Assembly: GCF_026210795.1 (NCBI RefSeq)
Contig: NC_089430.1
Coordinates: 4,216,001 to 4,280,000 of the forward strand
From: Rhizophagus irregularis
Lineage: Eukaryota
DNA length: 64,000 nucleotides
Direction: 5' to 3'
Positions within the stretch are counted from its first letter, which is position 1, and each line of letters starts with the position of its first letter. The notes under the pieces were generated by a model. The model was not told where the DNA came from. It ran no database searches and was given only the letters and a program-made list of their open reading frames with translations. Position numbers and translations under genes: made by a program. Below are positions 9,735 through 59,208 of this stretch, piece by piece.

Positions 9735-11850
9735 ATGGTATGTTCAAATTTATTATCATATTTGTTTTGGATAAAAAATTTTTTTTTTGTTAGTAGCAAA
9801 TTATGATAATCTTAAAACGTCTTGATAATTTAATAGAATCTTCTTACGAAAAAAGACGAATATTTTATAAATTTCATAAATGAACAAAATGTTGGTCAAA
9901 AAAAATTTTTTTTTTTTTACCGTATTTTAATATATAAAAAAAATATTTAAATCATACTTTTTGTTCCTCGTAGGTTACCGAAAGCATAGAAGATTTAACC
10001 CAGAAAAACGAATATGATAATGCGGTTGTCAGCTGGTTATGCCAATGCTCAAATATTAAAAAGACAAAAACTTATTCTCCGGAATCATTTAGAGAATATC
10101 TAGAGAAAAATCCAAACAATTTTTTAATGTTGTGTCTTAGTTGTAACGAACTTTGTCCGATCTTTAATGTACGATAAGCATGTTCGTGTTATGTAACAAC
10201 TAACGTTAATTAACAATTTTGGTAATTAATAATTTTATTATTCAATAGATTTCCTTACGTACATTATTTTATGAACCACAGACGGAATATTTTATAAATT
10301 TTGGGAATGAAAATGTTAAGTCAAATTTAATAAATTTTTTTGGAGTTTTTAAAAATGTAAAAAACATAAAATTTTTAATATTTGTTAATTGTAGGTTTAC
10401 CTAATCATCTATTACCTAAAATTTCTATTCCGTGATGGTAGATGTAGATACAAAGTGTGTGGCATTTGGGCGTGTCAATCATGTGAATATTCGAATGAAC
10501 GAGAAACAACCTTTAACGTTGGGATGAAAAGTTTTAAAAGTTATTTGGAAAAAGCAAATGATTTTTTTTGGGAAAAGTGTTTAAAATGTCGCAATAAATG
10601 TCAAATCTCGAGTTTTCATCTGTTGAAGAAAAAATCATCCAAATTTGAGGAATTGTGCTCGGTTTGTATTATTTCATTTTATATTTCATATATTAGTAAT
10701 CAAATGTACTGTATTTATTCTCTCTTTCGAAAATGTAACATAGATTACTGAAATCGTCCGTAATTTGATCGATAATAATAAGTATCAAATTTATGGTTAT
10801 TGGCTTTGTCGATTATGGAAATGTCGTCACGAATTACAATGTAAATCGGGTTTTAATTGTCGATACAAATGGTATTCTCAACATAAATGGCAATGCCAAC
10901 ATGAACCTAAGTGTAATGGTCCATGGAGTATGTTCCAATGTAGAAACAAAGAGTGTAAATGTTTGGTGAAACGTGATTGGAAATGTAAAGATTTAAGGCT
11001 AAATGGAATTGAATTACATTGTGAGAAAAATTTTTGTAGATGTAAACAATACCACGATTCGAAATGTAAAGATAATTGGCTAAATAAAAACAAGTGGCAA
11101 TGTCAACATGTTCAAAAATGTAAAACCGAACGGGAATGTAAACGTGATTGGCTATGTTTAAATGAATTGAAAAGTGAAAAATATACTCAAGAACTTCTCA
11201 AAAAACACCTAAAGAAATCACCAAGTGAACAGTACGAGTTTTTCAGAAAGGACTGTAAGGAATGCGGGAAAAGTGGTCAGATCTCAAGTTTTCAATTGTA
11301 TACACCACAGGAAAATGCTTTATATGTAGGTTAAATTAATTTTTAATTATTTTTTAGTTTCCACAAATTTTCATTAATTATAATTTATCTTAATCAGGAA
11401 GATGAGAGTGAAGGAAGTAAAAATCCAAGTTTAGCTCCAATTCCTGCTGTAGATATCTGTTCACCGTTAGAATCAACATCATTACCAGCAGGAAGATTGA
11501 CAGAAATTCAAACTCAAACCCCAACCGTCGAGATCGTTTGCCATTTAGTATGGAATAATCATTACAGAGTGTTTGGAGAGTGGATGTGTAGAAATCATTG
11601 CTATAGAACTTGGCCAAGTTCTTATACTTGGATAAAACTCCATAAGTTTATAGATAAATTTTCGGTAGAGAATTTGAATCGAAATGATTTTTACATGCAA
11701 AGTTGCAAAAAATGCGAGCAGCCTGGAAATAGACTATTGAAATACGAACATCTAAAGGAAGCGGAGGAGATCAGCCATCATAAACGATATTTATGTAAAA
11801 AATGTCGGTACGGTGAGATTTGTCATAAAACTGGCGATTACTTCTGCTAA
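9735..11850 (+). CDS. Tandem 3CxxC (ZAR1/RTP-like) zinc-binding domain protein, ~539 aa, 7 exons
   Basis: Exons 9735-9737 (ATG only), 9837-9890, 9974-10168, 10249-10314, 10395-10661, 10744-11325 and 11398-11850, all GT-AG and phase 0, splice into one open frame. The C-terminal YRVFGEWMCRNHC..WPSSYTW..QSCKKC..HKRYLCKKC matches the zf-3CxxC pattern; three partial modules lie upstream. Confidence 0.8.
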
Positions 11851-12574
11851 ATTAATGTGTATTATCGTTATGGTACGTTCAAGAATAATAAGTCGAGAAC
11901 TTTTTCGGAATTCTAAGTATTGTAACTTAATTGTACCTTATAATATTATTTTTCTTTTAAATTATTTATGTATCATTTTATCCAATAAAATTTTTATTAT
12001 ATTTTATTTTTATTTTTATTTTTATTATCTTTATTTACCTTATTTTCTAATACCTTTTTTTTTTTAAACAAAAAAAAACAAATAATTTTGAAAAAATCCG
12101 TCAAAACCTTGATTTTTTTTTTTGAATAAAGATTTATAATTCGTTTTCTGCAAAACATTTTATATACAGATAAATATTTTAAAAATTATAAATCTATAAA
12201 AGGACAAGACGGACAAGACGGTGAGTTCATACAATGTCGCGATGATTCGATTGATTCGTCCATGTGCGTGGCGCAGCAAAATTTGATTATATGGTTAGGA
12301 AGTTCCTATCGCCTCGATAAATCAAGGTGGTTATCTGCTATTAAAAATGAAAAAGTTTTCTCCGGTGGTCAGTAATTTTTAGCTAGCAAAAGTCTTAAGT
12401 TCATTTGCCAAATTATTAAAAAAATAAAAAGTTTGACGTTAATTATTTCAAAATTAAGCTCCGGATTTTTAAAAACCTATAACATCAATTACGAAAAAAC
12501 GAAAGACGAAATCATTAATAATAATAATAATAAAAATCACATGATATAGTATTTATAACTATGGATGAGCTTAT

Positions 12575-12800: not shown

Positions 12801-13880
12801 TTAACATATATTAAAGAACCAAATATCAAATTAATCACGAAATTAAATTTAAGCTCTAAGGTGGATAACTTATGATAAAGTTTATTGATATTAAATAAAT
12901 TACAAAATATGTATTTTGATGAATTGATTAATATGTCATTTGAATAACAAAAATCAAAATTGAAACGAATAGAATCATGAGTTTTTAGCCTTACTTTAAA
13001 GTTTAAATAATTTAAATAATTTAAAAATGTTACATTTATGTTATAAGTTCATGATTTATTTGATTTTTTGATAACTAACGTTCTTAAAAAAAAAACGAAT
13101 GTCAAAATCTTTGATATTCTTATAACTTTTATAACTTGAAAAAAAAAATCGTGAAAGCTAAAATTTTATCTATTTCATCTATTAGAATTTTTGTTTTAGT
13201 TTTTATAGAAATTAAAATCTAAGTTTATTAAAAATGTTGTGTTATTCGAAATTTATTACTGTATTATAAGTGGGAATATTTTTATATGAGTAACATTTAA
13301 CAAATTTTATATATTGTACTATAACTATTGCCGTTAATATCTGAAATGATAAATTTGTACGATAGAAAATAAAAATTACTATTTGATAATATTAAAAATT
13401 TATTATAAATATAGAGTCTATTTTATAATAAAAATTCATCAATTATTATAGTAAGAATGAAACTACTTTTCTTACAGAAAGACGTTCACACCACTATTTT
13501 ATGCTACGCTGCTGCTTAACAAAATTAGTTTTGTATTATGTAGTTTATATTTCGAGTTGTGTTATTCTAGATAATTTTTTCCTGAAGTTAATATAATATT
13601 ATAACAAATTGAACTTTCTTATCTTTATCAATAAATTAATAGGTTAATTTTATGACTTGAAATTATACTCTAGCGTCTTTATTAGTATGACAATCACCTG
13701 TCGATTTGTATTACTGCGATGCCAATTTGATTGAAATGATTTCCTTTTTTATTCTCATTGAATATCCAAATTAAATTACGTATTTGGTAACACAATTTTT
13801 TTTTTTTTTATAATCGTGGAATTCTTTTTCACAAATTTGAAACAAACTTACTTACTTATAACAGAATTTATATTATAAAA

Positions 13881-15541
13881 ATGAGCTTTATTAATGAAAA
13901 TCAATTAGTATCTGAATTTGATAAATTAAATATTTCTGATAAAGATTCAAATCCTGTAAAAATTAATCATGAAAATTGTTATGACCCAGATAATAAAAAA
14001 TATTGGTGTAAAGAATGTGTTCCTCATTGCATAATTGAAGGATGGACCAGCAGTGGAAATGATGATATTGATAATCTTATCAAGGATTCGATTTATAATG
14101 CAAGTAAATTTTATAATAGTAAAGATAGTAAATGGTATCCATCATTTCTTGAATGGGTTCCATTTGATAGATTTGAAGATATGAAACAAATAGGTGAAGG
14201 TGGATTTGCAAAAGTGTATTCTGCAACTTGGATTGATGGTACAGCAAAATACATCAGACAAGATGATGGAAATTGGATAAAAAAAGGACCTGAATCCATG
14301 AAAGTTGCCTTGAAAATGCTAAATGGATTACAGAATATGTCAGCTGATTTTTCAAATGAGGTAATTTTCACATGACATGTACTTATTTTAATTTTAAAAA
14401 AATATTAAAATTTATTTAATTTATTTTAATTTGAATAATAATAGCTTAAAACACATTGGAAATTAAATTGCTTACAAGCAGATTCTTTAAAATTTTATGG
14501 AATAACTAAAGATCCAGAAACTGAAGAAATTATGATGATTATGAAATATGCAAAGGAAGGAAATTTGAGAAATGTTCTTTCAAGCAATTTTAACAAAATT
14601 TTATGGGAAGAGAAAATTAGATATTTATACTTTTCAGCAAATGACCTTAAAATTTTACATAAATTAGGATATTTTCATAAAGATTTTCATAGTGGAAATA
14701 TATTAAATATTGGTGGTACTTCTTATATTTCAGATTTTGGATTATCTAGACCATCAAATGAACAGAAATCATCAGATAGTAATAAAATAGTTGGTGTGTT
14801 GCCATATATTGCTCCAGAAGTTTTAAATGGAGAACCATATACATTATCTTCTGACATTTATAGCTTTGGTGTAGTTATGGCTGAATTATCATCTGGAAAA
14901 CCTCCTTTTTATAAAAGAAAACATGATGGTGGCTTAGCATTAGAAATATGTAATGGACTCAGACCAGAATTTGGAAAAGGAACTCCTGAAATTTATAAGA
15001 AATTAGCTCATAGATGTATGAATGCTAATCCAAATCAAAGACCAACAGCCAATGAATTACGCGAAATATTAATTTGTTGGAATAGTTATTTGACGGATTT
15101 AGGTAAAGATGAAAAATTTGGATATAAAAGAGAAGAAGTTAAAGCTGTATTTGAAGAAGCTGATAAAGAAATACCAAATATTTCAACCTCATATGAAAAA
15201 AAACCTGATGCTATTTATACTAGTAGAACATTTACATTTAAAAATTTGTCAAAACCCATTAATTCATCTTTTATTGCTACCACATATCTTAATGAAGAAG
15301 ATAATGAAGGTATTAAATTTTATGTTATTTTGTACAAATTTTATAAAAATAATTAAGATAATGAATAATTTTATTTATTATAATAGGTTGTCAGGATTCT
15401 CAATTAGTTGGCTTAGAGATTTCTAGCTCATTAAAACTAAAAGGTGAGTATAGTAACTTATTACCTTCAGTTTATCTGTTTTTATGATGTTAAAATAAAC
15501 TAATGTTTTTTTAAATAATAGATAATGATGTTGATAACTAA
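13881..15541 (+). CDS. Tyrosine-kinase-like (TKL) protein kinase, copy A, 4 exons
   Basis: Exons 13881-14360, 14445-15309, 15387-15443, 15522-15541. Motifs GEGGFAKVY, VALK, HKDFHSGNIL, DFG, YIAPE, SDIYSFG; N-terminal WCxxC..WTSGNDDID..LEWVPF segment. Confidence 0.92.
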
Positions 15542-18739: not shown

Positions 18740-20180
18740 ATAGTATATTTACTTTGTCATACAGTATTAGATTTTTTTTTTTTTTTTTTGTTGATTGCAA
18801 ATTATGATAACCAAAAAAATGTCCTGATAATTTAATGTATCTTCTTAAGGGAAAGGAAAAATATTTATAAATTTCATAAATGAACAAAATGTTAATCAAG
18901 AATAAAATTTTTTTTATCGTATCATAATATAAATAAAATTTAATAATAATATTTTTTCTCGTAGATTACAAAAAGTATAGAAACCTATCCCCAAAAAAAT
19001 GAATATGACAGTGTGGTTGTTAGTTGGTCATGTTTATGTTCAGACACTTCAAAGTCAATAACTTGTTTGCCGGAATCATTTAGAGAGTAACTAGAAAAAA
19101 ATCCGAACCATTTTTATATGTACTGTCGAAATTGTAATAAAATGTATCGGATCTTTAATGTACGATAAATACTGTATAATTTATGTCATGTTAATGAAGT
19201 TTAATCACAATTTTACTGTCTGATATCTTTATTGTTTAATAGATTTCCTGAAGTACATTATCTTACAAACTACAATCGGGAATATTTTACAAACTTTATG
19301 AATGAAAAATAAAAAGAATTTTTTTTTAAAAAAAAAAGAAAAAGAAAATGTGAAAAAAAAATCGAATTTTAATATTGTTCTTTACAGGTTAATAAAATCA
19401 TCTTTTACCTAAAATATCTAATCTGGTACAATAAATACGAAGTGTGTGCCATTTGGTCATGTGAATTCTCAAGTGAGCGCGAAAAATCTTTTAATGCGAA
19501 TAATTTTAGAAAATTTTAATATGCTCTAGAAAGAGAAAAAGACTTTTTCTAGAAGAATTGTTCGGAATCCCACAATAAATGTCAGATCTCGAGTTTCCAT
19601 TTGCTGAAGCGAAGACCTTACAGAACATACAGAGTTGATGAATTGTGTTTGGTTTGTATTAATTTTATTTTATATTTTATATATTAGTAATTAAAAGTGT
19701 ATTCATTCATTTTTACGAAATGTAATTTACTTTTCGTTAAAGATTACGAAATCGTTCGTCATCTGATCGATAATAATCGATCATTGGAAATGCCGTCACG
19801 AACTACGATGTAAAATGGACATAAATGGAAATGTCAACATGATCCTAAATGTAAATGGTCTGTGGTGTATGTTCCAACGTAGTAGAAACAAAGAGTGTAA
19901 ATGTAAAAAGAAATGTGATTGGAAATGTAAAGATCTATTGACAAATAAAAACAAGTGGCAATGTGAGGATAGATTATGTAGATGTCAACAACAATACAAC
20001 ATAAAATGGTTAAATAAAATGGAGTTGTCAACGTGATCAAAAATGTGAAACTGAACGGAAATGCCAACGGGATTGGTTATGCTTAAATGAATGGAAAAGT
20101 GAAGAATATACTCATGAATTACTCAATGAGTGCCTAAAAAAATCACAAAGTGAACAAGAACCAATTTTTTAAAAAGGGCT
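18740..20180 (+). pseudogene. Pseudogene copy of the tandem 3CxxC gene
   Basis: Colinear with exons 1-6 of 9735-11850; ATG changed to ATA at 18740; TAA at 19088; further stops near 19517 and 19550; frameshifts; truncated at ~20180 before the final domain. Confidence 0.85.
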
Positions 20181-20724
20181 GAGGTCATGTGCACATTCCG
20201 ATGGGCTAATTTAATGAAATTTTAACTTCTTAGAAATTTTATCAATTTTATCGGCTTTTTATTCTTTTTTTTTTCAAAACCGATTTTTTCAAATTTTTTT
20301 TTTTGGTTTTTTCTCAACTTAAATTTTTTTTTTCAAATATTAATTTTCCTTTTTCAGTTTTCTTTTTCAAATTGAAATTTTTTTTTCACTTGGTTTTTTT
20401 TCAACCCGAAAAAATGTGGTTTATTCCATTCTAGGTTTGGATCGATGATTAGATTGATGCTGCAGGGGCACTTTCTTTTTTCCTATTACTAATGCTTTCC
20501 CCTTAATAATTTTTTTTTTTGTTCCTTTCATCTCTTAGGTTTGGATCGAGATCATTGCTGCGAAATAATTGAAATAAATATATATTGTTATGTTTTAATG
20601 AATTATAATCTTTTAATATTTAGAATAAATATAAATACTAGTATATAATCACTAAAATTATATATTAATTTATTGTATAGCTTAAGTCCATTGATCCTAG
20701 TGCGAAGCAACGGGCGACTGCTAG
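20181..20724 (+). mobile_element. Probable non-autonomous Helitron-like element (T-rich body, 3' hairpin + CTAG)
   Basis: Ends cctagtgcgaagcaacgggcgactg-CTAG|T, a degenerate form of the CCCGTGCGAAGCACGGG..CTAG|T Helitron 3' end; 5' boundary approximate. Confidence 0.5.
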
Positions 20725-21235: not shown

Positions 21236-22867
21236 TTAGTTATCACTATTGTCTTCTATTATTAAAAATTAATAAAACATTAGTACATTTTATTTTATAT
21301 CATAAAATTAATATCATAAATATATAGTTGATTATATTTACCTTCTAATTTTGATGTATTAGGAACCTCTAAGTCAACTAATTGAGAATCTTGACAACCT
21401 ATCATAATAAATAAAATTAAACATTATCTTAATTATTTTATAAAATTTAAAAAATATAATATAGTAAAATGTACCTTCATTATCTTCTTCATTAAGATAT
21501 GTAGTAGCAATAAAAGATGAATTAATGGGTTTTGACAAATTACTGAATGTAAATGCTCTACTAGTATAAATAGCATCAGGTTTTTTTTCATATGAGGTTG
21601 AAATATTTGGTATTTCTTTATCAGCTTCTTCAAATACAGCTTTAACTTCTTCTCCTTTATATCCATATTTTTCATTATCTTTATAATTATCCCAACAATT
21701 TAATATTTCTTCTAATTCATTGGCTATTGGTCTTTGATTTGGATTAGCATTCATACATCTATGAGCTAATTTCTTATAAATTTCAGGAGTTCCTTTTCCA
21801 AATTCTGGTCTGAGTCCATTACATATTTCTAATGCTAAGCCACCATCATGTTTTCTTTTATAAAAAGGAGGTTTTCCAGATGATAATTCAGTCATAACTA
21901 CACCAAAGCTATAAATGTCAGAAGATAATGTATATGGTTCTCCATTTAAAACTTCTGGAGCAATATATGGCAACACACCAACTATTTTATTACTATCTGA
22001 TGATTTCTGTTCATTTGATGGTCTAGATAATCCAAAATCTGAAATATAAGAATAACCCCTAATATTTAATATATTTCCACTATGAAAATCTTTATGAAAA
22101 TATCCTAATTCATGTAAGTATTTAAGGTCTAGTGCTGAACATTGTAAATAAGTTATTTTCTCATCCCATAAAATTTTATTAAAATTACTTGAAAGAAAAT
22201 TTCTCAAATTTCCATTATTTGCATATTGTATAATTATCATAATTTCTTCAGTTTCTGGATCTTTGGTTATTCCATAAAATTTTAAAGAATTACCTTGTAA
22301 GCAATTTAATTTCCAATGCGTTTTAAGCTATTATTATTTAAATTAAAATAAATTAAATAAATTTTAATGTTTTTTAAAATTAAAATAAGTACATGTTAAA
22401 AAAAATACCTCATTTAAAAGATCAGATGACATATTCTGTGATCCATTTAGCCGTTTCAAAGCAACTTGTATGGGTTCAGGTTCTTCTTTTATCCAATTTC
22501 CGTCATCTTGTTTAATGTATTTTGCCATACCATCGATCCAAGTCGCAGAATACACTTTTGCAAATCCACCTTCACCTATTTGTTTCATATCTTCAAATCT
22601 ATCAAATGGAACCCATTCAAGAAATATTGGATAATCATAGCTTTTCCTTATGTTATAAATCGAATCCTTGATAAAATTATCAATATCATCATTTCCACTG
22701 GTCCATCCTTCAATTATGCAACGAGGAACACATTCTTCACACCAAAATATATAATTATCTGGGTCGTAACAATTTTCATGATTAATTTTTACGGGATTAG
22801 AATCTTTATCAGAAATATTTAATATATCAAATTCAGATACTAATTGATTTTCATTACTAAAGCTCAT
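21236..22867 (-). CDS. TKL protein kinase, copy B, 4 exons (inverted paralog of copy A)
   Basis: Exons 22867-22409, 22327-21475, 21398-21342, 21255-21236; same motifs and intron positions as copy A. Confidence 0.92.
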
Positions 22868-23252
22868 TTTTATAATATAAATTCTGTTAGAAGTAAATAA
22901 GTTTGTTTCAAAGAATTTTACGTTGCAAAAAAAAAAAATTGGCGTTACTTTTATATTTAACTAAATTCGGATATTCAATGAATCAATGAAGATAAAAAGG
23001 AATTATCTTAACCAAAATTGTCATGGTAGGATTGACAATTCAAATATAGATCGTCACACTATTATAAAAGTGTTTTAAATTACAAAAAAATTTTGTTAAT
23101 TTTATTGATAGGTGAAATGTAACTTTTTAAAGCCGAATTAGATTATACTCCTATTTATTAACTTGGTTTACAAATTTGGGAAACCTTCTTCGTTATTAAA
23201 CTAGTAGTAAATGGGGTAACATTCGTCATTTATTATACTTTTAAAAAATATA

Positions 23253-26419: not shown

Positions 26420-27432
26420 ATGAGTCACTCACCATTTAAAACTGTAACCATACAGTAGCAGGAGGTACGGTGATTTGGGTTATGTTATTGCCGAGGCATT
26501 TTTGAATGATGGATCTTATAACGTGAAGATTCTTCGAAAGAAACCAGAAAAAGAAAATGAAAAAGCTAAGCTGCTGGCTTCCAAGGGTGCAGAAATTATA
26601 TATGCGGATTATAGTCAAAACGATGATCTTGTCAAAGCTATTAAAGGAACAGATGTTATCGTCAGTGCTGTAAATTCTGATCCTAAAACTGAGAGCTTTT
26701 ATAATTCTCAAGCTCCACTGTTAGCCGCTGCCAAGGATGCCTCTGTGAAGAGGTTCATCCCATCTGAATTTACTGGAAGATTTAAGTATGATTTTTTTCT
26801 TATTTTTTTTTTGTTGATTTTTCTTTTTATTTAACAAAGATCTGGAGATCATTTTATCATAGACGATAAAGATAAATTTAGAGAAGAATTAGAAAAAAGT
26901 GGACTTGAGTACACATATATCGAAGTCTGAATATTTCAAGAATTCTTTGATTGGTTGGGATTCGATATTAAAAATAAGAAAGCTACTTTCTATGTTGATG
27001 CTAACGAAAAAATTCCCACTACTTCTTTGAATGATATTGGAAAATATACCGTAGAGACACTTAAAATACCAGAGGCTCGTAACGCTCGTATTAATATTGC
27101 TGGCTCATTCCTGTCATTAAATGAGTACCTTGAAATATTTGAAAAGGCTTCTGGTGAGTAAATATTTTATTTAATCGTTATTAAATTATGAATTTTTATA
27201 GTAATTAATTATGATGGTTTATGAAGGTTCAAAATGGGAAGTAATTGTGGATAAAGATGTAAGACATCGATACAAAAACAAGATTGAACCAGTTCCCCAA
27301 TTCTTGGATTATTACAAGGCTGTCCTTTTACAAGAAGGGGAGGTTAATCTAGAATTAGATAATGATAAATTCAGTTTTACTCCTAAACCTGTTACCGAGT
27401 TTATTGAAAAACTTGTAAAACAAGCGTCATAA
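26420..27432 (+). pseudogene. NmrA-like oxidoreductase pseudogene
   Basis: Colinear with 35752-36790; indels and TAG in the GGTGxLG Rossmann motif (~26450-26475); GGA>TGA at 26928. Confidence 0.88.
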
Positions 27433-35751: not shown

Positions 35752-36790
35752 TTATGATGCTTGTTTAACGAGTTCTTCAATGACTTCGGTAACAGGTTTA
35801 GGAGTGAAACTAAATTTATCATTATCGAACTTTCCGAGCTGCCCTTCTTGCACAATGGTAGCCTTGAAATCCTCCAAGAATGAGGGAACTGGATCGATCT
35901 TGTTTTTGAATCGATTTTTTACATCTTTATCAACAACTACTTCCCATTTTGAACCTTCATAAACCATCATTATTAGTTTATACTACAAAAATTTTACATT
36001 CTAATGACTAATGAAAATTAAATAAAATATGTACTCACCGGTAACTTTTTCAAATATTTCAAGATACTCATTTAACGACAAGTTCGCGCCAGCGACATTA
36101 ATATGACCGTTACGAGCCTCTGGTATTTTGAGTGTCTCTACGGTATATTTTCCAATATCATGCAAAGAAGTGGTGGGAAATATTTTGCTACCATCATCAT
36201 AGAAAGTAGCTTTCTTATTTTTAATATCATATCCCAACCAACCAAAGTATTCTTGAAATAATCCAACATAGATGTATGTATACTCAAGTCCACTTTTTTC
36301 TACTTCTTCTCCAAATTTGATTTTATCGTCAATGAGAACATGAGTTCCAGTTCTTTGTTAAAGAAAAATCGTTATGAATTTATCATAAACGTACAAAAAA
36401 AAACAGAAAAAAAAGAAAATAAACATACTTAAACTTTGCGCCATATTCAGACGGGATGAACCTCTTCACAGAGGCATCTTTAGCAGCGGCTAACAGTGGA
36501 GCTTGTGAATCATAAAAACCCGCGCCTTTAGGATCAAAATTTAAAGTGCTGACAACAACATCGGTTCCTTTAAGAGCCTTGACAAGATCATCATGTTGAC
36601 TATAATCCGCATATACAATTTCTGCACCCTTGGAAGCTAACAATTTAGCCTTTTCATTTTCGTTTTCTGGTTTTCTTCGAAGAATTTTCACGTTATAAGA
36701 TCCATCATTCAAGAATGCCTCAGCGATAGCATAACCCAAAGTACCCGTGCCTCCGGCTATAGCTACGGTTTTAAATTGTGAATCACTCAT
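35752..36790 (-). CDS. NmrA-like / isoflavone-reductase-like NAD(P)-binding oxidoreductase (292 aa), 3 exons
   Basis: Exons 36790-36429, 36352-36039, 35954-35752 form an open frame; VAIAGGTGTLG, ADY..L..ALKGTDVVVS, VKRFIPSEYG motifs. Confidence 0.92.
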
Positions 36791-38086
36791 GATATGACGA
36801 ATTTTTTGTTTAAGAGATATTTATCAGTATTTGATAGTTCCTTTTCGTTAAAATCCACCTTATATTAATACTTTTCTGAATCAAATGATTATTAATATAG
36901 CTCAGTAATTTATTAAGATAAACAGGTATTGATATTTAAGTTGCATATTAAGATTAAGTGTATTCTATATTTAGATTCTTTGTTAAATGAATATTCTGCA
37001 TCTCTTAAAATCTTGGCGACCATGAGAAGAATCAATTAGTAAGAAAAAGGGATAATAATTAAACAAAATAATATTAATTATACCAAATAGAGTTAAAAAA
37101 TATCATTATTATCATTATTCGGGAAAGATCGGACCAGGATATTCCGTGAATATGAAACACTTTATCCTTAAACAATATGGTGTCATATTTGTCATATTAT
37201 AATTCGCACCTATGAAACTGTTTAAACTACGAACGTTGTGACGTTATACAAGATAAGAATATTTATTCTTATTCCTAAAAAAAAATACTTAAAATTTTTT
37301 GTTTGAGGAGAAAAAATAAATAAATATTCTCGTTCCAAGAATTTACTATTGTCTTTTGTCTCTTTGAAACCCAATAATAGAAAACAATTTATTTAACGGG
37401 AATAGTGAAATGAGTGAAATGCGTGTTCACTAATAATTATTTCATTATGACAATAAAATTTATTTTTATTTTTCTTCTTTTTATATAAAAATCAAAATTA
37501 TTTCTAAAAATGGTAAAGAATAGCTGCGTGTCACATCATTCACATGCCGATCACAACGAGATTTCTTGGATTTCCTATTTTAAGACTTATTTGTTATATA
37601 AAAAGATTAATAATTCAAGTTTATAGTTTGTTCCGTAATTCACTAACCAAGTCAAAAGCACGAGTACTTCGGAAGGGTCGTCACCAAAAGATTTATTTGC
37701 ACGCAAGTTTTGTGGGCGCGGTTTGTGTCGATCTTCGCCATATAAGGAACAAGTGACATTTAAGTGTCTCCTGATCACGTGCAGCCACGAGTTCAAAAAC
37801 ATTAAGTATCTGAGGGACTTAGTTTTTTTTTAGTGTCAAAAATTTATTTGTCACCCCTGTTACACAAAAAACCGCGCCCACAAAATTGGGGTGCGATTTA
37901 TTTTATTACATGGTAATGGGAACCAGTTTATATCGTTTCATAACCTTTAAATCACGTGAATAAACAAAATTTGATTGGCTACTTCATTTGCTTATAGATA
38001 ATCTTTTTTTTAACTTGTCCTTATTTTTTTAAAAAAAATAACGGATAACGGCTTTTTTGTTCTCACTTCTTACGTTCGGAAACCAG

Positions 38087-47609: not shown

Positions 47610-47686
47610 ACCGTTCTGAAAATTAATTAAATTTATTCGGCTGACACCAATAGTTTTACAAATACTTTTTGTTTTACTCTCTCACT

Positions 47687-49282
47687 ATGTCTTGTTCAAA
47701 AATATTCTCGGGAGAATTACCAGAATTAACATATGATATTTTAAAGTATTTTAAGAATGATTTTTCAACTTTACATTCATGTATTTTAGTTAACAGATTA
47801 TGGTGTCGTTTAGCAATTCCATTATTATGGGAAAACCCATTTTCGAAACCTACAGGAAATTATAAGTTTATTGAAATTTGCTTAGATAATTTAAATGGGG
47901 ATTTAAAAACAGAATTAAATGAATATAGAATTGAGGATAATTTATTTCCTTCAAATACACTTTTCAATTATCCTAGTTTTATAAGGTATTTGAATACACA
48001 TACGATTTTTTATTCTATTTACAAGTGGTCTGAAATTGCTAAAAAGACTTTAAAACCTGAAAAAAGAAATTTATATGAGGTTAAAAATTTTCAAAAATTA
48101 ATTCAAATATTATTTTTTAAACTGATTATTGATAATGAAGCAAATTTACATACTCTTAAAATTGAGCTCATTTCTAGTACTTGGAATTCTCACTTTAATA
48201 ATCTTTTAGAATTAATTTTACAAAATCCAAATTTTATTATTCACAATGTTAAAAATTTAACATTTTATACTCGTATTCATAATGATTCTACTAGTGATAA
48301 TACATATATGATAGCTAAAAATCTTATATTACAATTAATTAACTTACATCAAAATCTTAAAAATATTTCTTTAAGTTTTGATATAAACTTTCTTTCATAT
48401 AAATCATTATTATTAACAAAAGATTATAATTGTTCAAACACTTTAAATACTATCACATTATGTCACGTTAATTTTAAAGATATAATCAATTTAGATAAAA
48501 TATTTGATCAATTAAAAGTTTTAGAATCTGTTCATCTCATTTATTGTTATTCCTTAAATAATAGTTTTATTCAACAAATTATTAATTTAAATAGACCATT
48601 TAAATTAAAATCTTTAATTATAGATTCGAGATCACAAATTGATGATTCATCATTTCAATTATTACTACGAAAATGTGGCGGATATTTAGAGAATTTTGGA
48701 AGTAAATTTGGAGTTCAAAGTGAAATATTACATGAATCAATTATAAAATATTGTAAAAATATTAAATCATTTTATTTAAGTGAATTTAAAGATCAGATTA
48801 TTTATTTATTATTAGATCTGATTGAAAATATGAAACAAAGTCTTAATTATCTTACAATCATTGTATCGAATTGTGAAAATTATATTGAATGTAGTTCAAT
48901 TATATTACAAAATTTAGGACAAGTCCTTCCTTTTAAATTAGAATATTTAGATTTGGTTCTTCACATTAAAATGAGTGATTTTGAAGTATTCTTGAAAAAT
49001 TCACAAGATACTTTTATTAAGAAATTGTTGATCAATAATTTCAATGATTTAAAAGGACAAGATATTTTATCTTATATAAAAGAATATATTATGAAAAAGA
49101 AAAGAGCAAAGTATTTGGCTTTTATGTATTCCTATGAAAGTACATCAGATGATGAAGATATTGAAAACTATAAGGAACTGGCTTCAATGAAAGATGAAGT
49201 GGAGGAATTTAAGTTGTATGGTATTAAACTGCTAAGTTATTATGGCTCATTGATAAGTTTTTATGAATTTACTCGGGATTAA
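47687..49282 (+). CDS. F-box-like / RNI-LRR-like protein (531 aa), intronless
   Basis: N-terminal LPELTYDILKYF..LHSCILVNRLWCRLAIPLLW F-box pattern followed by LxxLxL-type repeats; ATG at 47687. Confidence 0.88.
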   Translation: MSCSKIFSGELPELTYDILKYFKNDFSTLHSCILVNRLWCRLAIPLLWENPFSKPTGNYKFIEICLDNLNGDLKTELNEYRIEDNLFPSNTLFNYPSFIRYLNTHTIFYSIYKWSEIAKKTLKPEKRNLYEVKNFQKLIQILFFKLIIDNEANLHTLKIELISSTWNSHFNNLLELILQNPNFIIHNVKNLTFYTRIHNDSTSDNTYMIAKNLILQLINLHQNLKNISLSFDINFLSYKSLLLTKDYNCSNTLNTITLCHVNFKDIINLDKIFDQLKVLESVHLIYCYSLNNSFIQQIINLNRPFKLKSLIIDSRSQIDDSSFQLLLRKCGGYLENFGSKFGVQSEILHESIIKYCKNIKSFYLSEFKDQIIYLLLDLIENMKQSLNYLTIIVSNCENYIECSSIILQNLGQVLPFKLEYLDLVLHIKMSDFEVFLKNSQDTFIKKLLINNFNDLKGQDILSYIKEYIMKKKRAKYLAFMYSYESTSDDEDIENYKELASMKDEVEEFKLYGIKLLSYYGSLISFYEFTRD

Positions 49283-51097: not shown

Positions 51098-52616
51098 ATG
51101 GCATCAATTTTTCATCTTAATCTCTCAAAAGACCTTTCCTTAATATTAGATGATGCAGATGATTACAATGCTATTATTCAAGTTGGTGAAAACCAAAATA
51201 TAAAAGAATTTCATACACATTCTGTTATTTTACGTGCTCGTTCTCCCTATTTTAAAGCTGCACTTTCAGCCAATTGGATTACAAAGAAAAATAATATGAT
51301 TATGTTTAGCAAACCAAATATTACTCCAACTGTTTTTTATATGATTTTGAAGTGAGGAATATTTAGTTTTTTTTATAAATTTGACATTAACTTATTCTAA
51401 ATATATAATTATTTTTATTAGGTATGTGTACACTGGTGAACTTGATTTAATTGAACAATCGGGTGAAAATATTCTTAATTTGCTAATTGCATCTGATGAA
51501 TTACTTCTTGATGAAGAATTATTTAAACATGTTCAAGATTATTTAATTGAAAAACAAACCAAATGGGTTCATAAAAATTTCGTTCTTGTTCTTAATACTG
51601 TCTTTGGACTTGATAGTTGCAAGAAATTACAAGGTTATTGTCTTGAATCTATCTGCGAAAATCCATTCCCATTTTTTTCTTCAAAAATCTTTCCTTCAAT
51701 AAATAAGAAAATACTTTTTGACTTGCTTAAAAGAGATGACTTGCAGATTGATGAAATTACTATTTGGGATTGTTTAATTGAATGGGGTATTGAACAAACT
51801 CCTGATTTGGGAAACAATAAAGCTAAGTGGAATAAGAATAATCACAAAGCATTGAAGAAAACTTTAAATCAATTTATTCCTCTCATTCGGTATGTAGGAA
51901 TTTCTCGTGCAGATTTTTTTGATAAAGTCCGTCCTTATAAAACTATTATTCCTTATCACATTTATGAAGAAATCGAAGAATTTTATTATAAAGATTCCTC
52001 ACCTAAAACTACAATTTTGCCACCTAGAATTTGTTCGACATTTGAAATAGGAAAAATTGAATCAAATATCATCAAACCAATACTTGCAAAAATAATAATT
52101 AATTGGATTGATAATAAAGATACTATGTATATTCGCACTAGAAATGATCCATCATATAGGCTTAAACTTATTTATCGTGGTAGCCGTAATGGAATTAGTA
52201 ATGAGTCATTTAGAAAAAAATGTAAAGGTCGAGTAGCAAGTTTAGTTCTAATTAAAGTTAAAGATTCAAATAAAGTTTTTGGTGGATATAGTTCTATTGG
52301 AGTTTGTTCATTAGGAAATGATTTTGATGATGATCTTATTCGTCATGGTTTTCAATTTTACAATTCATCAGATAATTTTATTTTCTCATTTGAAGATAGT
52401 GAAGATACTCAAAATATGAAAATAAGTCGAGTAGTAAGTAATTCTCATGCCATATTGGATCATCATGCTAGTGGATTTAATTTTGGTCGTAGTTCATTGT
52501 GCATGATAAATCAAAGTTTATATCTTACTAATTATATTGGGAATTATGAAAGGAATTTAGATACAAATAAAATTTATACTATTGAAGAAATTGAAACGTA
52601 TTTTGTATATCAATAA
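51098..52616 (+). CDS. BTB/POZ-BACK-TLDc protein, copy 1 (482 aa)
   Basis: Exons 51098-51351 and 51422-52616; HSVILRARSPYF, ILKYVYTG, LLKRDDLQIDE, LIYRGSRNG, VFGGYS, FIFSF motifs. Confidence 0.92.
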
Positions 52617-57684: not shown

Positions 57685-59208
57685 ATGGCTTCAAATTTTC
57701 ACTTTCGTCTTTCAGAAGACCTTTCCTTAATATTAGATGATGCAGATGATTACAATGTCATTATTCAAGTTGGTGAAAACCAAAATACAAAGGAATTTCG
57801 TGCACATTCTGTTATTTTACGTGCTCGTTCTCCTTATTTTAAAGTTGCTCTTTCTACTAATTGGATTACAAAAAAGGATAATATGATTATGTTTAACAAA
57901 CCAAATATTACTCCAACTGTTTTTCATATGATTTTGAAGTGAGAATTATTTATTTATTTTTTTTATTTATAAATTTTTGAAATTTAAATTTATTAATTTA
58001 TTCTTAAATATAAATAATTTTTTATTAGATATATTTATACTGGTGAACTTGATTTAACTAAACAATCAGGTGAAAATATTCTTGGTTTGCTAGTTGCATC
58101 TGATGAATTACTTCTTGAAGAATTATTTAAACATGTTCGAGATTATTTAATCGAAAAACAAACCAAATGGGTTGATAAAAATTTTGTTCTTGTTCTTAAT
58201 GCTGTGTTTAGACTTGATAATTGCAAGAAATTACAAGATTATTGTTTTAAATCTATCTGCGAAAATCCTCTACCATTTTTTTCTTCAAAAATCTTTCCTT
58301 CATTAAATAAGGAAATACTTTTTGACTTGCTTGAAAGAGACGACTTACAAATTAAAGAAGTTATCGTTTGGGATTATTTAATTAAATGGGGTATTGAACA
58401 AACTTCTGGTCTTGGGCATGAGAATAGTGATAGAGCGAAATGGAATAATAAGGATTATGAAGAATTGAAGAAAACTTTAAATCAAATTATTCCTCTTATT
58501 CGTTTTACGGAAATTTCTCGTGCAGATTTTTTTGATAAAGTCCGTCCTTATAGAATTATTATTCCTAATCATATTTATGAAGAAATTGAAGAATTTTATT
58601 ATAAGGATGCCTTACCTAAAACTACAATTTTACCACCTAGAACTGGTTATTCATTTGAAATAGGAAAAATTGAGTCAAATATCATCAAACCAATACTCGC
58701 AAAATTAATAGTTAATTGGATTGGAAATGATCAATTGTATAGGTTTAAACTTATTTATCGTGGTAGTCGTGATGGAATTAGTAATAAATCATTCAGAGAA
58801 AAATGTAAAGGTCGAGTAGCAAGTTTAGTTTTAATTAAAGTTAAAGATACAAATAAAGTTTTTGGTGGATATAGTTCTATCGGGTTTTGTTCATTAGGAA
58901 ATGATTTTACTCTTATTAATAGTGATGATTATCATGATTTTCGATTTTACAATTCATCAGATAATTTTATTTTCTCATTTGAAAACAGCGAAGATACTCG
59001 ACATATGAAAATAAGCCGGGTAGTAAATAAATCTCAAGCCATATTGGATATTGATCGTAGTGGATTTAATTTTGGTTGGGGTTCATTATCTATGAATAAT
59101 ATAAATTTACACGCTAATAATCATAGCAATAATTATGAAAATAATTTAAAGACTGATACAGTTTATACTATCAAAGAAATTGAAATCTTTAACATATCCA
59201 ATCAATAA
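57685..59208 (+). CDS. BTB/POZ-BACK-TLDc protein, copy 2 (477 aa)
   Basis: Exons 57685-57938 and 58029-59208; same motifs and intron as copy 1. Confidence 0.92.

What the first reader, a model, noticed from the sequence alone, without database searches (positions are those of the whole stretch)
9735..11850. Fungal protein built from four tandem ZAR1/RTP-like 3CxxC modules
Seen: four related modules in one spliced frame: WLCQC..CLSC; GIWACQSC..CLKC..QISSFHL; GYWLC..CKEC..QISSFQL; FGEWMCRNHC..CKKC..H..LCKKC. Only the last keeps the third H/CxxC site. Established: the 3CxxC domain occurs singly in animal ZAR1 (maternal mRNA binding) and RTP proteins, including the interferon-induced antiviral RTP4. 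Inference: a multivalent RNA-binding protein, plausibly for spore mRNA storage or antiviral/anti-TE sensing. I do not know this tandem architecture as described.
Basis: partly seen in the sequence, partly recalled or inferred. Interest (0 to 1): 0.7.

Follow-up and report, generated by a model that had tools for sequence, protein, structure and literature searches.

The report
Four-ribbon 3CxxC protein of mycorrhizal fungus
This is one spliced gene of the mycorrhizal fungus Rhizophagus irregularis whose protein ends in a complete ZAR1-type zinc domain, preceded by three shortened copies of it; it likely binds RNA through the last domain, and it is the longest member found of a family spread across these fungi.

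Summary
Observation confirmed. Window 9735-11850 (+) is one gene of seven exons (539 aa). Spliced contigs appear in 6 of 6 contig runs laid; one contig shows all six coding exons plus the upstream exon in one record. It is R. irregularis GLOIN_2v1470518. Only module 4 is a true PF13695 3CxxC domain (34.8 bits, cut-off 23), and it matches the solved ZAR1 RNA-binding domain by profile and fold. Modules 1-3 are real homologues (0 of 1000 shuffles each) but are 'half' modules with one predicted zinc site. They lack the H/CxxC/C tail that holds the ZAR1 RNA-binding arginine, and the WxSxYxW strand. They belong to an old, separate clade of half modules. The usual family form across Glomeromycotina is one half plus one full module, the same finger order as Shiftless. 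Four modules were seen only in Rhizophagus. 'Four equivalent RNA-binding domains' is not supported; RNA binding through module 4 is likely but untested. New variant of a known kind, moderate interest.

The parts
9735..11850 (+). Gene, 7 coding exons, 539 aa (R. irregularis GLOIN_2v1470518 / OCT59_012281)
9735..9737 (+). Exon 1 coding part (ATG only), then intron 1 (9738-9836)
   Evidence: loose end of X10; database models P0005/P0007/P0009/P0010 start the same way
9837..9890 (+). Exon 2 (aa 2-19); with intron 2 it is a DNA-level duplicate of exon 4 + intron 4
   Evidence: 71% over 125 nt; score 92 against a maximum of 57 in 1000 shuffles
9974..10168 (+). Exon 3, module M1: half module, predicted zinc site C42, C44, C73, C76; acidic
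10249..10314 (+). Exon 4 (aa 85-106), linker between M1 and M2
10395..10661 (+). Exon 5, module M2: half module, predicted zinc site C133, C136, C168, C171
10744..11325 (+). Exon 6, module M3: half module (predicted site C217, C222, C366, C369) split by the repeat insert
10825..11133 (+). 103-aa basic Cys/His/Trp insert made of W-x-C-x-H-x3-C units (3 clear units here, 8-10 in relatives, commonest spacing 18 aa); no known family found
11398..11520 (+). Start of exon 7: acidic, Pro/Ser-rich linker, low model confidence
11521..11847 (+). Module M4: complete 3CxxC domain (C453, C457, C492, C495; H517, C522, C525, C531)
   Evidence: PF13695 E 2.5e-8; ZAR1 9jko Z 4.8, rmsd 3.5, 80 of 98 aligned
11851..11989 (+). 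3' untranslated region as far as contigs of X2, X9 and X11 reach
18780..20181 (+). Broken paralogous copy of exons 2-6 (M1-M3); frameshifts and stops; no M4 found

Best explanation
This spliced, transcribed gene encodes a 539-residue protein of three half modules and one complete 3CxxC domain that likely acts as a soluble zinc-dependent RNA-binding regulator of fungal mRNAs, with module 4 as the likely RNA-binding unit. Shown: gene structure, homology of the four modules, PF13695 and ZAR1 match of M4, conservation of all predicted ligands in paralogues. Inferred: M3+M4 are the ancestral half+full core of a Glomeromycotina family; M1 and M2 are added copies of the half module; each half binds one zinc and M4 two; the halves and the basic repeat insert would extend or tune the binding surface, or recruit partners, rather than act as three more ZAR1-type binding sites. 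By analogy with ZAR1, ZCCHC24 and Shiftless the outcome would be control of translation, storage or stability of bound RNAs.
For: M4 passes PF13695. A profile of 38 full modules hits one PDB sequence at E <= 10, human ZAR1 RNA-binding domain, E 0.0043, sharing G-x-W-x-C, W-x-S-x-Y-x-W and H-x4-CxxC. ZAR1 is the top fold match for M4 (Z 4.8, rmsd 3.5, 80 aligned) and for the full module of the minimal relative P0066 (Z 5.3, rmsd 3.5, 74 aligned, best of 48,161 chains). The characterised relatives bind RNA (PMC12799850; PMC12431671; PMC12716391; PMC11624195, listing only). M2, M3, insert and M4 are basic, pI 8.7-9.3. No signal or membrane segment: highest 19-residue hydropathy 1.54, inside M1. 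All 12 predicted Cys ligands of M1-M3, all 8 of M4 and 19 of 19 listed insert Cys/His are kept in paralogues P0002, P0018 and P0019, at 54-66% identity in M1-M2. Full modules are better conserved than halves in the same 21 proteins (48% against 37%).
Against: No binding data exist. Fold scores are weak (Z under 8; Foldseek E 0.27-0.58) and a shared fold shows no function. At the position that I map to ZAR1 R397, whose R397Q change impairs RNA binding (PMC12799850), M4 has Ser515 after an acidic stretch; 28 of 68 family tails have K or R there. M1 is acidic. Model confidence for M2 and the insert is only 50-70. The two raw-read RNA runs gave 11 and 6 laid reads and no joints.
Confidence: 0.55

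Rival explanations
1. An intrinsic defence factor like Shiftless or RTP4 that binds mycoviral, transposon or endosymbiont RNA and blocks its translation or replication.
For: Half + full finger order parallels Shiftless ZF1, ZF2, ZF3; the full module aligns to ZF2-ZF3 of 9kbo (Z 3.7, rmsd 3.7, 58 aligned; Z 3.0). The family shows birth and death: a broken copy 9 kb away, at least 8 separate clusters named R. irregularis, separate tandem gains in Funneliformis and in the P0073/P0088 group. 10 of 24 multi-module relatives begin MGxxxS/T, a myristoylation-type start (motif recalled; count). Two small Mycoplasmataceae genomes carry the domain.
Against: Within the species the protein is conserved (M4 104-109 of 109 identical in 5 database models of other strains), which does not look like an arms race. 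No PF15135 hit and no sequence hit to 9kbo. Birth and death is common in this window for kinases and BTB genes too.
Confidence: 0.15
2. A protein-interaction scaffold: the zinc ribbons are adaptors for signalling or ubiquitin partners, and RNA binding has been lost.
For: Three of four modules lack the tail and WxSxYxW strand, and M4 lacks the R397-equivalent basic residue. Mouse RTP4 associates with a viral protein (PMC12431671 passage).
Against: M4 is the best conserved part and keeps the ZAR1 strand motif and all 8 ligands; no enzyme, RING or known adaptor domain was found.
Confidence: 0.18
3. A largely dispensable product of gene-family turnover: the extra modules are tolerated duplications with no added role.
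For: Module number varies from 1 to 4 across the family; exon-intron duplication is visible in DNA; one database model lacks M2 (P0003).
Against: M1 and M2 are kept with all Cys in R. clarus (P0068) and in the paralogue; every junction is spliced in frame.
Confidence: 0.08
4. A metal buffer or redox sensor (43 Cys and 16 His in 539 residues).
For: Composition and an expandable Cys/His repeat.
Against: The cysteines sit in ordered ribbon folds with conserved non-ligand residues, unlike metallothioneins (own knowledge).
Confidence: 0.04

Closest known systems
ZAR1 / ZAR1L C-terminal RNA-binding domain (PF13695; PDB 9JKO)
   Same: M4 passes PF13695, shares the strand motif and the two-site ligand pattern, and ZAR1 is its top sequence and fold match in the PDB.
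   Different: ZAR1 has one domain behind a disordered region (PMC12799850); here three folded half modules precede it, and the R397-equivalent position is Ser.
Shiftless (SHFL, PF15135; PDB 9KBO)
   Same: Two CCCC ribbons followed by an HCCC finger (PMC12716391), as in the M3+M4 core; weak fold match of the full module to ZF2-ZF3.
   Different: No sequence or Pfam match; no N-terminal helical bundle or phosphorylated loop seen; larger helix-bearing ribbons; two extra modules and a repeat insert. Whether the shared order is inherited or convergent is untested.
RTP1-4 (3CxxC finger; RTP4 antiviral)
   Same: Same Pfam domain with three CxxC motifs (PMC12431671 passage).
   Different: RTP4 has the finger followed by a variable region and a membrane anchor; this protein ends in the finger and has no membrane segment.
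ZCCHC24-like proteins (PF17180, PF23490)
   Same: Top language-model neighbours, score 0.83, a lead only; several relatives hit PF17180 weakly.
   Different: The window protein hits neither family.
Glomeromycotina '3CxxC-type domain-containing' proteins (unnamed family, automatic UniRef labels)
   Same: Direct homologues with half + full core in Rhizophagus, Funneliformis, Diversispora, Glomus, Entrophospora and Ambispora; a half module with repeats in Cetraspora.
   Different: Most have one half module, often behind a low-complexity N-terminus; four modules were seen only in R. irregularis (two paralogues) and, split over two adjacent gene models, R. clarus.

Membership tests
PF13695 Zn_ribbon_3CxxC | Score above Pfam gathering threshold, module 4 | tested here: met
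   34.8 bits against 23, profile 1-99 of 100. Full-length models give no Pfam hit.
PF13695 Zn_ribbon_3CxxC | Score above threshold, modules 1-3 | tested here: not met
   No PF13695 row at E <= 10 for exons 3, 5, 6. Half modules of relatives do hit the first half of the profile: P0030 151-202 on 2-47 of 100, E 0.00068; P0066 has two stretches.
PF13695 Zn_ribbon_3CxxC | Three Cys pairs plus His, module 4 | tested here: met
   C453/C457, C492/C495, H517, C522/C525, C531.
PF13695 Zn_ribbon_3CxxC | Three Cys pairs plus His, modules 1-3 | tested here: not met
   Two pairs each; the only tail match is at H517.
ZAR1/ZAR1L | Fold of the ZAR1 RNA-binding domain | tested here: inconclusive
   Top match but Z 4.8, rmsd 3.5, 80 of 98; supported by profile hit E 0.0043.
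ZAR1/ZAR1L | Single domain behind a long disordered N-terminus | tested here: not met
   Three predicted folded modules precede M4.
ZAR1/ZAR1L | Basic residue at the R397 position before the tail His | tested here: not met
   Ser515. The mapping of R397 is my inference.
ZAR1/ZAR1L | mRNA binding and translational control | not testable with these tools
   Needs binding assays.
RTP family | C-terminal membrane anchor after the finger | tested here: not met
   Protein ends in M4; highest 19-residue hydropathy 1.54, in M1.
Shiftless | PF15135 or sequence match | tested here: not met
   No PF15135 row; 9kbo not hit by three profiles or the protein.
Shiftless | Ribbon + ribbon + HCCC finger order and fold | tested here: inconclusive
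   Same order by ligand pattern; fold match only for the full module, Z 3.0-3.7; Foldseek 142 columns at rmsd 9.4.
ZCCHC24 | PF17180 and PF23490 | tested here: not met
   Neither hit by the window protein or its exons.

The most novel reading that the evidence does not exclude
Arbuscular mycorrhizal fungi have their own Shiftless/RTP4-like RNA-defence family, built on a half + full 3CxxC core that grows by adding ribbons and an undescribed W-x-C-x-H-x3-C zinc repeat to recognise foreign or selfish RNA, and their endobacteria carry copies of the domain to interfere with it.
Probability: 0.1. Interest if true: 0.78.

Novelty: new variant of a known kind. Interest (0 to 1): 0.42.

Why it matters
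3CxxC proteins are studied in animals, where they store maternal mRNA or restrict RNA viruses. A spliced, conserved, expandable family in the fungi that partner most land plants gives named candidates for post-transcriptional control or RNA defence in a group with few characterised RNA-binding proteins. It also shows a half module that Pfam misses, a possible parallel to the Shiftless finger order, and an unassigned Cys/His repeat that can be tested directly.

Tried and rejected
Separate genes: rejected by spliced contigs. Recent truncation of M4 as the source of M1-M3: rejected by the tree, where they group with other half modules. No whole genome was held for the window, so no genome-wide copy count. 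No RNA holder was listed as such; the two raw-read runs gave too few reads to judge level or strand. The broken copy had little contig cover, which is no evidence. phmmer of the protein and profile A1 against PDB sequences gave only chance rows. Foldseek found nothing at E <= 0.001 in PDB or BFVD. No specific fold match was listed for the half modules. The Atlas gave no usable hit for the repeat of P0027. The one viral locus, L002, is a phage ORF without the cysteine pattern and was dropped. Profiles A2 and A5 were too loose for contig scans, so only single-protein scans were made. No paper on the ZAR1 crystal structure was found. No earlier finding of this scan matched. No complex prediction was sent, as no binding pair is claimed.

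Full report
Gene structure. The window is AT-rich fungal DNA. Exon 6 matched one named protein at 100% identity, R. irregularis GLOIN_2v1470518, and database model P0015 agrees with my model at 520 of its 521 residues. Seven exons with six phase-0 GT..AG introns give 539 residues. Of 8 runs laid, all 6 contig runs, from 6 coded studies, show spliced joints; the 2 raw-read runs gave 11 and 6 reads and no joint. Contig X10 holds exons 2-7 in one record with a loose end that reads as the sequence upstream of the ATG. One X2 contig starts inside intron 1, so an unspliced or alternative 5' form may exist. The runs are only guessed to be RNA, but the joints remove the introns exactly.

Four modules. 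Pfam recognises only exon 7 (PF13695, E 2.5e-8, 34.8 bits); 3 of 4 exons tested miss it, and full-length models give no hit at all. A profile of 7 half modules taken only from non-orthologous relatives finds all four modules, each above all 1000 shuffles; M1 is weakest (13.6 bits, best shuffle 10.8). With a profile of full modules M1 was reached by 5 of 1000 shuffles. AlphaFold2 (mean pLDDT 69, pTM 0.58) gives M1, M2 and M3 the same helix-strand-strand-helix-strand-strand order; M3 core and M4 reach 83-96, M2 and the insert 50-70. Exon 2 + intron 2 and exon 4 + intron 4 are DNA duplicates, so M1 or M2 arose by duplication inside the gene.

Half modules are a domain type of their own. In a tree of 74 ribbons (91 columns, many forks open; a hand-picked subset of 43 proteins plus the four window modules), 27 half modules including M1, M2 and M3 form one group (100/99) apart from 47 others that include M4. 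A second, separate origin of half + full pairs lies among the latter (P0073, P0085, P0088, P0097). All 12 predicted Cys ligands of M1-M3 are kept in three paralogue models, and the 10 covered are kept in R. clarus P0068. The halves lack the tail and the WxSxYxW strand and are less conserved than full modules (37% against 48%, 21 proteins; 5 of 30 listed proteins were dropped for lack of an anchor motif and 4 more for their inserts).

Family. A profile search of 1.84 billion representatives returned 112 proteins. Automatic counts: one ribbon + tail 37, two + tail 28, one without tail 24, two without tail 14, three or more 5, none 4. These are rough: many rows are fragments, inserts split some modules, and the single count of four (P0029) includes a spurious piece. 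67 of the 104 new proteins hit PF13695. Named members come from Rhizophagus, Funneliformis, Glomus, Diversispora, Entrophospora, Ambispora and Cetraspora; I looked up names for 20 of the 104. Four modules were seen only in the two R. irregularis paralogues and in adjacent R. clarus models RclHR1_06930007 and _06930006. 10 of 24 multi-module proteins that start with Met begin MGxxxS/T; the window protein does not.

The insert. Residues 223-325 interrupt M3 after its first cysteine pair. They are built from W-x-C-x-H-x3-C units: 3 clear ones here, 8-10 in P0027, P0031 and P0106 with 18 the commonest spacing; 18 of 112 representatives have at least one. 19 of 19 listed Cys/His are kept in the paralogues. 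No family was found for it. I infer a small zinc-binding repeat.

Comparison with known proteins. A profile of 38 full modules hits one PDB sequence, the ZAR1 RNA-binding domain (E 0.0043). ZAR1 is also the best fold match of M4 and of the full module of P0066, modelled at pLDDT 88.5; scores are modest. Shiftless has two CCCC ribbons and an HCCC finger (PMC12716391, passages and section 7), the order of M3+M4, and its ZF2-ZF3 aligns weakly to the full module. The ZAR1 variant R397Q impairs RNA binding (PMC12799850, passages). From the alignment and the chain numbers, I map R397 to the arginine two places before the tail histidine. That region is absent from M1-M3 and is Ser515 in M4.

Mechanism. 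Most likely the protein binds RNA through M4, supported by M3 and the basic insert, and regulates translation, storage or decay of its targets (0.55). A scaffold without RNA binding (0.18) and a Shiftless/RTP4-like defence role (0.15) are the main rivals. None of these functions was tested.

Literature. Eight searches were run. None listed a paper on this gene or on tandem fungal 3CxxC proteins; the library lacks most subscription journals. Passages read: a zf-3CxxC ORF in a Fusarium mitochondrial genome resembling an R. irregularis protein (PMC5604515); PF13695 enriched among genes regulated in Podospora sexual development (10.1101/2024.12.09.627484); RTP4 (PMC12431671); endobacteria (PMC10507103). 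One 374-aa zf-3CxxC protein, not identified as this one, is in a proteomics table of PMC8647823, whose text describes spore proteomics (8 supplementary files searched, file 1 not searched). PMC11624195 was seen as a listing only. Supplements of the bioRxiv paper were not seen.

Verdict. A real, correctly described gene. The domain is known; the half module, the four-module form and the repeat insert appear undescribed. New variant of a known kind, interest 0.42.

Noticed in passing
L001:5001-5789 (+) and L004:781-2217 (-): A 3CxxC domain of this family lies in two very small Mycoplasmataceae genomes read with TGA=W: 2 of 5 genomes of that GTDB family, 1 of 399 scored in a class sample. L001 is isolate AM1032, which PMC10507103 describes as an endobacterium of Linnemannia gamsii; its copy lacks the tail, the L004 copy is complete. 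They group with P0103 among full modules (96/88). Transfer from a fungal host is likely but direction was not tested; it was not among the transfers in the passages read.
   Followed up: partly
window 18780-20181 (+): Broken copy of exons 2-6 with many frameshifts and 3 new stops; 82-88% like R. diaphanus protein P0042 over two pieces.
   Followed up: partly
P0116, P0118, P0119, P0124, P0125, P0130-P0132, P0137, P0140-P0142: Small Lys/Asn-rich single-domain 3CxxC proteins, unnamed where looked up and mostly on short contigs; those in the tree form one group (98/96). They may be mitochondrial or endobacterial ORFs, in view of the Fusarium report.
   Followed up: no
P0032-P0034, P0047, P0049, P0055, P0059, P0063, P0067, P0069: Relatives with an MGxxxS/T start, a low-complexity N-terminus and the half + full core: possibly membrane-tethered forms.
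   Followed up: partly
P0106 (Cetraspora pellucida model): Kinase fragment joined to a half module with 8 repeat units; may be a gene-model fusion.
   Followed up: no
window 13791-15356 (+) and 21377-22960 (-): Two similar protein-kinase genes of the kind expanded in this fungus (recognised by eye); an intron at 14358-14443 is spliced in two runs.
   Followed up: no
window 26448-26831 (+), 36004-36820 (-), 47654-49279 (+), 51351-52613 (+), 58018-59205 (+): By eye: two NmrA-like oxidoreductase genes, an F-box-like gene and two BTB/BACK-like genes; labels are recalled, not searched.
   Followed up: no
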